This document shows positions 20,478 to 61,363 of a stretch of DNA of 64,000 nucleotides, in pieces. Both the position numbers and the translations under genes were made by a program. The DNA lies in assembly GCA_951406725.2 (NCBI GenBank), contig OX597814.1, forward strand, positions 166,780,001-166,844,000, in the 5' to 3' direction. The notes beneath the pieces are model-generated. The model was not told where the DNA came from, ran no database searches, and was given only the letters and a program-made list of their open reading frames with translations. The stretch comes from Octopus vulgaris (lineage: Eukaryota). Within the stretch, counting starts at the first letter, position 1, and each line of letters opens with the position of its first letter.

Positions 20478-21380
20478 ACATCAACATCAAGATACACAAC
20501 CCCATCGTCACAACAGATATCTGCTACAAAAAACCGACACACACTAATATTTATATTTCTACTCCCGCCACCCATCCCACGTAAAAAGAAACATTCCATA
20601 TAGTATGGCAAGACGCATATGCAGCATAGTGGTCGACTCGCAAACACGCCAAATAAGACTAAATTAACTTTAAAAACTTCCTACTAGAACAGAAATACCC
20701 ACTCAAATTAATAGAAAATGGAATCTCAAGAGCAACGAAACTGGACATCACACAACTCAGAACTCCAAAAAAGAAAAACAAAGAAAACATCCTCCCATTC
20801 ATAAACACACAACCCTGGAGTTACCAACATGTTTGAAATTATACAATCAAACTTAACAATAGACCTACAAAGCCCCAAAATGGGAAACCTATTTAACAAA
20901 TACTGCATAAAAAAACAGTAAAAGCCAAGAGAGAAACCTGAAAAACAACTAACAAGAGTAAAATTCTCATCAGAGAATGAAACCGTATTCTTTGTGAAAG
21001 AATGTGGAGATAGTAGATGTGGGATCTGCGGTAACCCCATCTATAAATATATAGAGGAAAACAGTCAAATAAAATTTAAGAGTGGACACATTTAAAATAA
21101 ATGCAACCATGAATTGCAAGACACGAAACTTAATATATTGCATAACTTGTCCCACATGCAAGAAGAACTATATTGGTGAAACTGGCAATTCTTTATGCCA
21201 ACGAGTCAGAATTCACTGACAGGGAGAGCTACAAAAAATTCCACTAAGTAAATACTTAGAAACATGTGGAAAAGGAAGATTTAAGATCTTTCCCTTCTAT
21301 AAATGCCCAAGGAATGACACCTTCAGAAAAAACATGGAACAACACTTCATAGCAAAATTCTCACCCAAACTGAATGGCTA
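20478..21380 (+). mobile_element. Penelope-like element fragment: RT C-terminus, linker and GIY-YIG endonuclease (frameshifted)
   Basis: Translates in pieces to HPSHVKRNIPYSMARRICSIV, ECGDSRCGIC, MNCKTRNLIYCITCPTCKKNYIGETG, FKIFPFYKC...HFIAKFSPKLNG*. Confidence 0.92.
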
Positions 21381-22719: not shown

Positions 22720-23085
22720 TGTTAAGTGTTCATATTTAGTCGGGGAAGATATTTATTGATGAAAGTTGCCTCTTTATTCATTCTTTGTTGCATTGAGGTG
22801 TTCCGTGAACATTGATAGAAGGGGAAAATTTGGAAATTAGGGTTAAAATTCCTAGCACACCTTTCTATGTGTTCACTAACCTGTAACTGTCTGTATTGTA
22901 GGTGGCGGATTTGTTCTTTGTGGATAGTGGTTCTTCGACGGAGTGATATTCCTGTTTGCCCAATATAGTTGTTACCACATCATAAGCATATCATAGCATA
23001 AATTAGATTTTCCGAGGAACAGGTGAAATTTGATTTGATCTTAAATATTTCACCTTGTTTAAAGTGGAATTCTGAACCCTCCAAA
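22720..23085 (-). mobile_element. Penelope-like element fragment (GIY-YIG domain)
   Basis: Reverse complement translates QGEIFKIKSNFTCSSENLIYAMICL*CGNNYIGQTGISLRRRTTIHKEQIRH...VSEHIERC. Confidence 0.9.
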
Positions 23086-23092
23086 AGGTGGG

Positions 23093-45059: not shown

Positions 45060-45327
45060 AAAGAACTCGTGCCAACGTGCAAGAATCCACAGGCAACATA
45101 TTCGACAAGAGGAATTACGCAATATTTCATTAAGTAAGCATGTGGAAATATGCAGCGACGGAAAATTCAAAATTTTTCCCTTTTACAAATGTGCTCGGGA
45201 CGATCCGCAAAACCGAAAAGCAATGGAACTACATTTCATCAAAATATTCTCTCCAAAATTGAATGTTTGAAAGAAAAGCGGAAACAGTACATTTTGTATT
45301 CTACATATAGCTCAAATATCGGAAATT

Positions 45328-45358
<31 letters not shown>

Positions 45359-45490
45359 TTAAATTTTTAATTTGCAAATATGCTAATGTTTTTTCATGCA
45401 GAACTAAATTTCATCAAAAAATTCTCTCCAAAATTGAATGCTTGAAAGAAAAGGGGAGTCAGTACATTTTGTATTCTAAATATAATTCAA
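45060..45490 (+). mobile_element. PLE GIY-YIG C-terminus with short 3' duplication
   Basis: ORF 45004-45270 ends CQRARIHRQHIRQEELRNISLSKHVEICSDGKFKIFPFYKC...FSPKLNV, homologous to 21190-21380; last about 90 bp repeated at about 45400-45490. Confidence 0.88.
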
Positions 45491-45660
45491 AGAGGAGAAA
45501 AAAGAAAGAAAGACGAAAAAAGAAGGAAAGAGACTTTCAGTGACAACCATACTGCACCTGTTTTTTGTTTTTTTTAAGAGGTCACCATTTCAATAGAATG
45601 GTAAATGACTAAATAAATAAATGGTGAATAAGAAGGGGATCCCCCTTCTCTCTCTCCCTC

Positions 45661-45742
<82 letters not shown>

Positions 45743-45998
45743 AGCCTATCTACTATCTACCTACTTATATTTCTATCTATCCATCTCCATTGTCAATGGA
45801 ACCTCACCCCAAAAAACAAAAACATCGTTCTCTTCTTCTAAACAAAACCCCCCAAAACATCTGTTTTATATAAATAAACAAGCTGTTTGTACATTCACAA
45901 AATTTTATTTGACAAGTTCGAGGAACAACTAAAATCCAAACCACTATTAGGGATAAACTTCGAAGGGAATGAAAAATAAGAACATTTACCATCTATCT

Positions 45999-46067
45999 CC
46001 TGGACCATTGTTTCAGACTCTTTTTAGCAAATAAAATAATTTGCTAGGTGAAGTCTTCATCAACAGG
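45999..46067 (-). ncRNA. Hammerhead motif (U3 variant), copy 1
   Basis: Reverse complement CCUG-UUGAUGA-AGACU...AGUCU-GAAA-CAAUGG-UC-CAGG. Confidence 0.7.
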
Positions 46068-46255
46068 TACGCCTAGATTAAACATATAAGTACGAGGCAA
46101 TCCAGCATGTGCCCCGTGCTTATACATTATAATTTTTCAAATTCACCGCACAAGCGCAGTTTTTTGTCGGCAGCAAATAAAATAATGCCGGTGTTATGTA
46201 TAAGCACGGAGCACATGCTGGATTACCTCATACTTATATGTTTAATCTAGGCGTA

Positions 46256-46325
46256 CCTGTTGATGAAGACTTCGCCTAGCAAATTATTTTATTTGCTAAA
46301 AAAAGTCTGAAACCATTGGTCCAGG
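46256..46325 (+). ncRNA. Hammerhead motif (U3 variant), copy 2
   Basis: CCUG-UUGAUGA-AGACUU-[UAGCAAAU/AUUUGCUA]-AAGUCU-GAAA-CCAUUGG-UC|CAGG. Confidence 0.75.
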
Positions 46326-46673
46326 AGATAGATGGTAAATGTTTTTATTGTTCATTCTAGCGTGCAAGGAATCCTATGACGGATACCTCTTATGTGTTTA
46401 AATGTACACTGTATTTATATGCATAATATATAGTCTATTGGCAAATTTATTAACATGCTAGGCCAATGGTAGTAAAAATTTCTAAAATTTTTTATTACCC
46501 TGATATTATTAATTATTGATAATTTTTTCTGAAACTTTTCGAAGAAACGCCGGCATTATTTTATTAGCTGCCGACAAAAAACTGCGCTTGTGCGGTGAAT
46601 TTGAAAAATTATAATGTATAAGCACGGGGCACATGCTGGATTGCCTCGTACTTATATGTTTAATCTAGACGTA

Positions 46674-46742
46674 CTTGTTGATGAAGACTTCGCCTAGCAA
46701 ATTATTTTATTTGCTAAAAAAAGTCTGAAACCATGGTCCAGG
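46674..46742 (+). ncRNA. Hammerhead motif (U3 variant), copy 3
   Basis: CUUG-UUGAUGA-AGACUU...AAGUCU-GAAA-CCAUGG-UC|CAGG; palindromic stem III ACCAUGGU. Confidence 0.75.
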
Positions 46743-46842
46743 AGATAGATGGTAAATGTTTTTATTTTTCATTCACTTCGAAGTTTATCCCTAATAGTGG
46801 TTTGGATTTTAGCTGTTCATTCTAGCGTGCAAGGAATCCTAT

Positions 46843-46997
46843 ATCTCTTGCTGAACCGCTAGCTTACGTAAACAAAACAATAGCGGTTGTGGAGGACAAA
46901 CACCTACACAAATACTTACACACACACACACACACACACATACACACACACAGCGATACATACATACACACATATACATATATATAATTATTATTAT

Positions 46998-51045: not shown

Positions 51046-51297
<252 letters not shown>

Positions 51298-60194: not shown

Positions 60195-61363
60195 TGCTTG
60201 AAATTCTTAGAAATCAGTCTTTATCGTAAGGTACTAGAAAAATACGGCAACCCATTCTCCCTTTACATAGAAAATAACTGGAAGAGGTATCTGGATGACT
60301 GTTTCATTCTTTGGCATGGAAGTATAGAGAGACTGAAAGAATTTCAAGCACTTATAATGGACTTGACGTAAACATTCAATTCACGATGGAATATAACTAT
60401 CAACAACTTCCTTTCCTCGACATCCTCATTAAGAAATCTAACAACGAAATAGAAACAGATATATACTATAAGCCCACGGACTCCAAGCAATATGTACCGT
60501 TCAACTCATGCCACTCCAGACACACTATAATGAATATCCCTTTCAACCTAGCAAAAAGGATTTGTACTATAGTTTCTAATACAAGCACCAGGGACACAGG
60601 ACTACATGAACTTAAGGATACACTCATTACTAGGGACTACCCACTATCACTAATATACGCTTTCAACGTGCCCTACAACTTAACATCCACGAACTCAGGC
60701 ATCCCAAATTAAAGAAGGATTTACTACCAAAAGCCCTACCATACATCTCCACACACAATTCTCTTAACAATGAAGCCTTCGACACCATCCTCCAGTACAT
60801 TCCCCTACTAAAAGGGTACTACAGAATGAATTTAATCCTCCAAACGCACACCATCATAAAGAGCAAAAGACAGCCCAAATCTATGAAAAATCTCCTAACA
60901 CAAGCCCAAGTACGCTCGACAACAACAGCGAAACTGTCAGTAAAAAAATGCGGAAGATCTAACTGTGGTATATGCGTCAACCTAATTGAGGATAAGAGTT
61001 CTCTTTCAAGCAGGGTCAACGTTTTACAGTGAAAAGCAACATCACATGTGCTTCGGAGAACCTGATATATGTATTAACTTGTTCTGGGTGTCGAGAGCAA
61101 TATATAGGCCAAACCAAAAATAGTCTACGTTAAAGGATGGCTCTACATAGATCCCAGATCAAGATTCGGAAATACGGAAAAATAGCATTCAGCGAATATT
61201 TGCGCCAATACCATACAACCCAAGCTTCAGAATTTTCCCATCTATCAATTCAGGGATGATGTAACCTGTAGTCAACGCATTAGTTAAGAGTCATACTTTA
61301 TCACAAAATATAAACCCCTTTTGAATGCGTCCACCACAAAGGACACTATTACAAAGGCCTTAG
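60195..61363 (+). mobile_element. PLE RT plus GIY-YIG relic (lineage 2)
   Basis: WKRYLDDCFILW; IQFTME...LPFLDILI...IYYKPTDSKQY; KCGRSNCGIC; NLIYVLTCSGCREQYIGQTK. Confidence 0.93.

What the first reader, a model, noticed from the sequence alone, without database searches (positions are those of the whole stretch)
45925..46842. Inverted plus tandem triple of a U3-variant hammerhead unit; predicted 417-nt cleavage product
Downstream of a GIY-YIG tail, a unit occurs once antisense and twice sense. All three copies share the UUGAUGA core (so U3 predates the duplication), an extended stem II and a short stem III before GUC|CAGG. The sense cleavage sites at 46321 and 46738 are 417 nt apart. Known: tandem minimal HHRs can dimerise via a palindromic stem III and release monomers that circularise (retrozymes), and inverted pLTRs are typical of PLE insertions. 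The inverted copy would also form a long dsRNA, a potential ADAR substrate (inference).
Basis: partly seen in the sequence, partly recalled or inferred. Interest (0 to 1): 0.75.

Follow-up and report, generated by a model that had tools for sequence, protein, structure and literature searches.

The report
Retrozyme spreading with a weakened hammerhead
This is one aged copy of a common non-coding jumping repeat that carries a self-cutting RNA motif and is likely pasted in by Penelope-type enzymes; the locus itself is ordinary, but its subfamily spread by the hundreds with core changes predicted to weaken cutting, which hints that cutting may not be needed for spread.

Summary
The three hammerhead-like copies are real and the 417-nt spacing is right, but little is special to this locus. 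It is one insertion of a ~465-nt non-coding repeat with over 1,000 dispersed copies. 417 is 465 minus a private 48-nt deletion. A head-to-head inverted partner is the family norm (66 of 86 loci). The upstream GIY-YIG tail belongs to a separate Neptune-like family. Family insertions carry the Penelope-like (PLE) footprint: two fixed 3' ends (about +141 and +243 from the cut site) running into microsatellites, one of each in 24 of 27 classifiable inverted pairs. U3 is a subfamily trait (310 exact U3 hits against 191 C3). It keeps G8, so it is an uncompensated wobble, not the known U3-A8 swap. Most U3 copies also lack the pair that closes stem II (58 of 74, against 2 of 24 C3 copies). A 417-nt product is unlikely: the cores are weak, the stem III palindromes no longer match, and copy 3 is predicted to be locked in a 273-bp duplex. 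Cleavage, circles and editing are untested. This scan noted similar retrozyme families (U3-A8 cores) on other DNA before.

The parts
45070..45920 (+). 5'-truncated fragment of a separate Neptune-like PLE: last 66 codons of GIY-YIG (stop 45268-45270) and 3' UTR with an internal 90-nt repeat and (TCTA)n; cut about 70-110 nt short of its usual 3' ends. Neighbour, not part of the hammerhead unit.
45921..46195 (-). Inverted arm of the insertion (partial monomer); 3' end points left and stops about +82 from its cut site, short of the family's fixed ends
45988..46081 (-). Hammerhead-like copy 1: core UUGAUGA at 46063-46057, stem III ACAAUGGU (palindrome broken), predicted cut 46003|46002
46196..46842 (+). 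Sense arm: 5'-truncated partial monomer followed seamlessly by a 465-nt monomer (46378-46842); stops at +104
46243..46337 (+). Hammerhead-like copy 2: core 46260-46266, stem III ACCAUUGGU (1-nt insertion), predicted cut 46321|46322
46349..46357 (+). Junction of a locus-private 48-nt deletion at a TTCATTC-type microhomology; turns 465 into 417
46391..46420 (+). Family 3'-end site 1 (about +141 from an undeleted cut site); read through here; the 21-mer has 1,142 exact genome hits
46498..46520 (+). Family 3'-end site 2 (about +243); read through here
46661..46754 (+). Hammerhead-like copy 3: core 46678-46684, G.U in stem I, perfect palindrome ACCAUGGU, predicted cut 46738|46739
46843..46977 (+). 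Decayed tail of an unrelated SINE-like repeat and (CA)n; 72% like window 10716-10569 (the SINE label is recalled)

Best explanation
The locus is one decayed insertion of a ~465-nt non-coding, hammerhead-bearing repeat (an animal non-LTR retrozyme) that a Penelope-like reverse transcriptase-endonuclease likely pasted in from a more-than-unit or circular RNA. Shown by sequence: seamless head-to-tail monomers without an ORF, dispersed copies, two fixed 3' ends about 141 and 243 nt past the cut site that run into microsatellites, and head-to-head arms that usually pair one end of each kind. Inferred: the enzyme nicks AT-rich DNA, primes both target strands on the RNA, one at each internal start, and the two 5'-truncated cDNAs join in the middle. 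That gives the inverted-plus-tandem triple in one event. The three copies then decayed independently (4-5%), including the 48-nt deletion. The U3.G8 core was inherited from the source subfamily. Cleavage at this locus is predicted to be weak or absent, and the adjacent GIY-YIG tail is an unrelated neighbour.
For: Family size: 2,029 first-look candidates; 1,142 exact hits of a 21-mer, control 0. Period: 24 same-strand pairs at 400-478 nt, median 465 (most were picked by a pattern that demands 453-478). Head-to-head partner in 66 of 86 loci chosen only by the 3' motif. 3' ends cluster at about +133-160 and +233-248, mostly into microsatellites; of 131 motif copies, 65 continue, 61 run into microsatellite, 5 other. 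Mixed ends in 24 of 27 classifiable inverted pairs, 13.5 expected, P=2e-5; 29 more pairs had an unclassified arm. No PLE ORF was continuous with the unit in the loci screened. Neighbouring monomers share subfamily markers: no C3/U3 mix in 11 pairs with both cores readable. Stem II shows two-sided changes in 5 of 6 basal pairs across 21 hand-picked copies. The window copies share no private change over 161 nt. PLE features as published: PMC8557442, PMC11167929, PMC4209133.
Against: No autonomous partner was found, so the enzyme is inferred from footprints. Both arms here stop short of the fixed ends (+82, +104) and no microsatellite flanks them, so later deletions or a target deletion must be assumed. 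No run of three hammerheads was seen in 160 loci; steep 5' truncation explains this, but it gives no positive sign of rolling-circle copying. The covariation set was hand-picked and related, pairs with two-sided change reached 29 of 500 shuffles, and stems I and III showed no two-sided change. Rfam does not call a hammerhead. Cleavage and circles are untested.
Confidence: 0.78

Rival explanations
1. The unit is the pLTR/3' UTR of an unseen autonomous PLE, and all copies are 5'-truncated tails of that element rather than an independent retrozyme.
For: The hammerhead looks like PLE types: long stem II, 4-bp stem I, small palindromic stem III (PMC4209133). Retrozymes and pLTRs are reported to be related (Li et al. 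2026). Only about 200 of over 1,000 loci were read.
Against: Copies that extend 5' run into another monomer at ~465-nt period, not into a GIY-YIG tail; copies that extend past +243 run on into the monomer, not into an ORF. The PLE fragments near units that I aligned belong to several different families and are set off by microsatellite or SINE-like DNA.
Confidence: 0.12
2. One reading: this locus is an active source that self-cleaves twice and releases a 417-nt RNA that circularises.
For: Both sense copies keep all core letters except C3, keep A10.1-U11.1 and a GUC site. Copy 2 and copy 3 stems III can still pair (-7.4 kcal/mol). PLE protein assists cleavage in PAc (PMC11167929).
Against: U3.G8 wobble; G.U in stem I of copy 3; mismatched palindromes (-7.4 against -11.2). 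The hammerhead fold lies 4.6-6.2 kcal/mol above the minimum for each isolated copy, and is not formed in the folded sense pair. With the inverted arm, copy 3 is fully paired to copy 1. The deleted junction has no exact match elsewhere, so the 417 form left no detected offspring. Only 1 of 9 predicted Xenopus dimers cleaved in vitro (Li et al. 2026).
Confidence: 0.1
3. The hammerhead unit is the pLTR of the Neptune-like element just upstream.
For: It abuts that element's 3' UTR at 45920/45921.
Against: 0 of 29 other copies of the GIY-YIG tail carry the unit within the 1.5-kb flanks; 16 3' ends inspected continue with their own tail and then mostly microsatellite or unrelated DNA; 0 of 28 unit loci carry the tail. 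The adjoining arm is antisense.
Confidence: 0.03
4. The triplication is a misassembly.
For: No listed contig spans the whole stretch; none shown bridges the left junction or the deletion (table cut).
Against: The copies differ by 4-5%. The same layout occurs at most family loci. A contig of run X2 bridges the right junction (46807-46905, 1 difference); an 89-nt contig of run X4 matches exactly across the inversion joint, with 29 nt on the left, just under the tool's 31-nt rule.
Confidence: 0.02

Closest known systems
Metazoan non-LTR retrozymes (Cervera and de la Pena 2020, PMC7229834: passages and section 14 read; Li et al. 2026, bioRxiv 10.64898/2026.07.22.740005: parts 1-3 of 5 read, abstract to discussion)
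   Same: Non-coding head-to-tail monomer with one type I hammerhead, dispersed monomers and dimers, co-existing with PLEs; mussel units are 350-390 bp.
   Different: 465-nt unit (above the 170-400 nt of the 2020 paper, within the 51-972 bp of the 2026 one); long two-part stem II; majority subfamilies carry U3.G8, often with an A.A mismatch closing stem II; no long arrays seen; circles not shown.
[quoted passage not shown]
   Same: Short stem I, enlarged stem II, small palindromic stem III suited to dimer folding; pairs on opposite strands 100-700 bp apart are described there.
   Different: The variant described there is compensated U3-A8; here G8 stays (55 of 58 U3 copies). The conserved G10.1-C11.1 pair is replaced by A-U or A.A. 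No ORF is linked.
PLE insertion footprint: partial tandem, inverted 5'-truncated copy, tail, microsatellite bias (Craig et al. 2021, PMC8557442: passages); PAc internal reverse-transcription starts (Frangieh et al. 2024, PMC11167929: main text)
   Same: Inverted plus tandem layout, two internal 3' ends downstream of the hammerhead, AT-rich targets.
   Different: The two ends are ~100 nt apart, not 30-40; they are paired one per arm; the element is non-coding.

Membership tests
Type I hammerhead ribozyme | Core C3UGANGA...GAAA...UH with the C3-G8 (or compensated) pair | tested here: not met
   All three copies have U3 with G8; the other core letters are present; sister subfamilies have C3.
Type I hammerhead ribozyme | Three helices around the core, open at stem I | tested here: met
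   Stems can be drawn in all copies; 91.5% of cells paired in 21 copies, two-sided changes only in stem II. Not the minimum-energy fold.
Type I hammerhead ribozyme | G10.1-C11.1 closing pair of stem II | tested here: not met
   A-U in the window; A.A in 60 of the first 100 genome hits with C or U at 3 (hand tally); G-C or G-U in divergent copies L132, L111.
Type I hammerhead ribozyme | Match to an Rfam hammerhead model | tested here: not met
   No hammerhead family among 131 matches at E<=1.
Type I hammerhead ribozyme | Self-cleavage | not testable with these tools
   Needs an in vitro assay.
Non-LTR retrozyme | Non-coding tandem monomer with one type I hammerhead motif per unit | tested here: met
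   ~465-nt period, no ORF; the motif is a variant.
Non-LTR retrozyme | Dispersed multi-copy family | tested here: met
   1,142 exact 21-mer hits; 250 hits spanning both core halves.
Non-LTR retrozyme | Expressed as monomeric circular RNA | tested here: inconclusive
   No run on record as RNA; contigs cannot show circles.
PLE-mobilised element | Partial tandem with inverted 5'-truncated copy, fixed internal 3' ends, microsatellite targets | tested here: met
   Family level. At this locus the layout is met but both ends are short.
pLTR of an autonomous PLE | Continuity with an RT + GIY-YIG ORF | tested here: not met
   None in about 200 loci; not exhaustive.
Neptune-clade PLE (upstream neighbour) | C-terminal GIY-YIG with a CX2-5CXXC linker after RT | tested here: inconclusive
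   Other copies show RT, a CX4CX2C-type linker and GIY-YIG; no tree against reference clades was built.

The most novel reading that the evidence does not exclude
A retrozyme lineage amplified to hundreds of copies after its hammerhead lost both the 3-8 Watson-Crick pair and the pair closing stem II, while neighbouring monomers stayed homogenised. Either the ribozyme is dispensable and tandem units are regenerated by the PLE enzyme itself (template jumps between two fixed starts), or PLE protein rescues a core that is dead alone. The genome would then hold a natural allelic series (C3/A-U, U3/A-U, U3/A.A) that tests what the hammerhead does in the PLE cycle.
Probability: 0.3. Interest if true: 0.62.

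Novelty: new variant of a known kind. Interest (0 to 1): 0.36.

Why it matters
The locus is ordinary. The family bears on an open question: whether hammerheads help PLE-type elements move or only ride along (raised in PMC8557442; cleavage was not needed for insertion in vitro in PMC11167929). Sister subfamilies with canonical and doubly altered cores, both amplified, allow a direct comparison. The one-end-per-arm pattern gives a genomic readout of how a PLE enzyme may prime both target strands. I found no paper on U3.G8 retrozyme families or octopus retrozymes; supplements of the retrozyme papers were not seen and could hold such cases.

Tried and rejected
Rfam scan: no hammerhead, only repeat-driven miRNA hits. 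Single-copy folds: z -1.1 to -1.9, unremarkable. Pile-up of 5' ends at the cut site, expected if cleaved linear RNA were the template: 11 of 130 segments start at -2..+10 against 5.5 expected (P=0.026, post hoc; only 2 at -1..+1), and 56 pass the site by more than 20 nt; too weak to use (one search was a first version with mis-registered rows). Search for a master array: 16 exact tandem pairs genome-wide, none adjacent; longest run 2 hammerheads. Search for the autonomous partner beside units: unrelated PLE families only. Sequencing runs: no RNA holder listed. Four runs guessed to be RNA hold family-like contigs, two of monomer size (472 and 463 nt) with go-back joints, but tandem DNA gives the same and RNA status is a guess. 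A-to-I editing cannot be read from contigs of a multi-copy repeat. The tree on 161 nt separates the C3/A7 subfamily but is otherwise star-like and does not order C3 and U3. Relative age: U3 groups are 94-96% and C3 groups 91-93% identical to their own majority, but U3 loci were picked by similarity to the window. Kinetic data for U3.G8 were not found: three papers were not held. That C3U slows cleavage is recalled, not read. A natural U3/G8 core is mentioned for a halophile variant that also has a 2-nt insertion (PMC7151607, passage; PMC3088659, section 8 and passages). Whether the locus lies in a host gene was not checked.

Full report
Observation. The window holds an antisense copy (45921-46195) joined head-to-head to a sense arm (46196-46842) with two hammerhead-like motifs. 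All three have UUGAUGA, a two-part stem II and GUC|CAGG; the sense sites are 417 nt apart. The motif is not chance (0 in 30 shuffles), though Rfam does not call it. Stem III differs in each copy and only copy 3 is a perfect palindrome; copy 3 also has a G.U in stem I.

It is a family. The genome (G000, 2.8 Gb; octopus-like by size and repeats, which is inference) gave 2,029 candidates for the unit and 1,142 exact hits for a 21-mer near its 3' end. Same-strand hammerheads lie 400-478 nt apart, median 465, in 24 pairs (most were selected by a pattern demanding 453-478; four further pairs at 570-859 were separate arms or insertions). Copy 2 lacks 48 nt that copy 3 has, which gives 417. That junction matched exactly only here; one 2-mismatch hit elsewhere is a different sequence. 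The three window copies are 95-96% identical to each other and share no private change over 161 nt. This fits one insertion of near-identical units followed by independent decay.

The GIY-YIG tail is a neighbour. 45070-45920 belongs to a family with RT, a CX4CX2C-type linker and C-terminal GIY-YIG, i.e. Neptune-like. Its 3' UTR runs to 45920 and, in other copies, about 70-110 nt further to its own ends. None of 29 other copies has the unit within 1.5 kb, and none of 28 unit loci has the tail. PLE fragments near other units belong to several families and are set off by microsatellite or SINE-like DNA, as expected from shared targets.

Insertion footprint. In 86 loci picked only by the 3' motif, 66 have a head-to-head inverted partner. 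3' ends cluster near +141 and +243 from the cut site and mostly run into (TA)n or similar. Following a lead from earlier scan notes, I tested whether the two arms use different ends: 24 of 27 classifiable pairs are mixed, 13.5 expected, P=2e-5; 29 pairs had an unclassified arm. Inverted partial tandems, tails and microsatellite bias are the published PLE signature (PMC8557442). PAc starts reverse transcription at two internal sites, extends both strands and is predicted to be a dimer (PMC11167929). The simplest model is priming of both target strands, one at each start, with the truncated cDNAs joined centrally (inference). At this locus both arms end early (+82, +104) against truncated neighbours; later deletion or a target deletion is assumed, not shown.

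Template. Monomers join seamlessly and neighbours share subfamily markers: no C3/U3 mix in 11 pairs with both cores readable, though position 7 differed in one. This needs a homogenising step, such as a circle or a template jump. 5' ends do not pile sharply at the cut site, and 56 of 130 segments pass it by more than 20 nt, so cleaved linear monomer is not the main template. No trimers were seen. Circle and uncleaved dimer cannot be told apart here.

The core variant. Exact 15-mers: 310 U3 (control 15) and 191 C3 (control 3). G8 is kept in 55 of 58 U3 copies, so this is a wobble, unlike the U3-A8 swap of PMC4209133 and PMC3088659. In the first 100 of 250 hits spanning both core halves, by hand tally: U3 with A11.1 58, U3 with U11.1 16, C3 with U11.1 22, C3 with A11.1 2, other 2 (Fisher P about 9e-10, inflated by shared descent). 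With A10.1, A11.1 leaves stem II unclosed. The window copies are the U3/U11.1 type. Divergent subfamilies show two-sided changes in stem II, so the structure was under selection at some time. The order of C3 and U3 is not resolved by my tree; C3 as ancestral rests on the hammerhead consensus and on the divergent copies being C3.

The 417-nt product. The hammerhead fold is 4.6-6.2 kcal/mol above the minimum for each copy. The copy 2/copy 3 stem III duplex is -7.4 kcal/mol against -11.2 for two intact palindromes. In a transcript that includes the inverted arm, copy 3 pairs entirely with copy 1 (longest helix 102 bp). PLE-type hammerheads cleave poorly in vitro even when intact (PMC4209133; 1 of 9 dimers in Li et al. 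2026), though protein can assist. I put a released 417-nt RNA at about 10%. The duplex would be a generic ADAR substrate if transcribed; nothing here tests that.

Assembly. The copies differ, the layout is common, run X2 bridges the right junction and run X4 matches exactly over the inversion joint with 29 nt on one side. Misassembly is unlikely.

Verdict. A known kind of element (non-LTR retrozyme with PLE footprint) at an ordinary, decayed locus. What is new, as far as seven searches show, is a subfamily that amplified with an uncompensated U3.G8 core and mostly without the stem II closing pair. This is testable but unproven. Interest 0.36.

Noticed in passing
window 31886 (minus strand); similar at L060: A compact canonical minimal hammerhead (CUGAUGA, 6-bp stem II, GAAACG-UU site) of a different repeat family.
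   Followed up: no
window 20500-21375 (+), 22731-23090 (-), 60195-61260 (+): Three more decayed PLE fragments (RT and/or GIY-YIG) from different Neptune-like families.
   Followed up: partly
window 45070-45920 and L032-L060: The Neptune-like family has a long 3' UTR with internal repeats and built-in microsatellites, and two 3' ends about 35 nt apart; my descriptor found no hammerhead in this UTR.
   Followed up: partly
L041 near 3050 (+), L058 near 64 (+): Two other hammerhead families with long stem II and palindromic stem III (CAAUUG, CGUACG).
   Followed up: no
L111, L115, L132, L133, L134: Divergent subfamilies of the same unit (69-80% identity) keep the 3' motif; some have GUA sites, a CCAAUUGG palindrome or G-C closing pairs.
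   Followed up: partly
window 46312-46321: The 1-nt insertion in copy 2 stem III reproduces the state of the C3/A7 subfamily: recurrent insertion or conversion.
   Followed up: no
window 51061-51164: A near-perfect ~100-nt hairpin, probably a small inverted-repeat element.
   Followed up: no
L116, L117, L200; L016, L017; L072: The same unit insertion recurs with its flanks, i.e. segmental duplicates.
   Followed up: no
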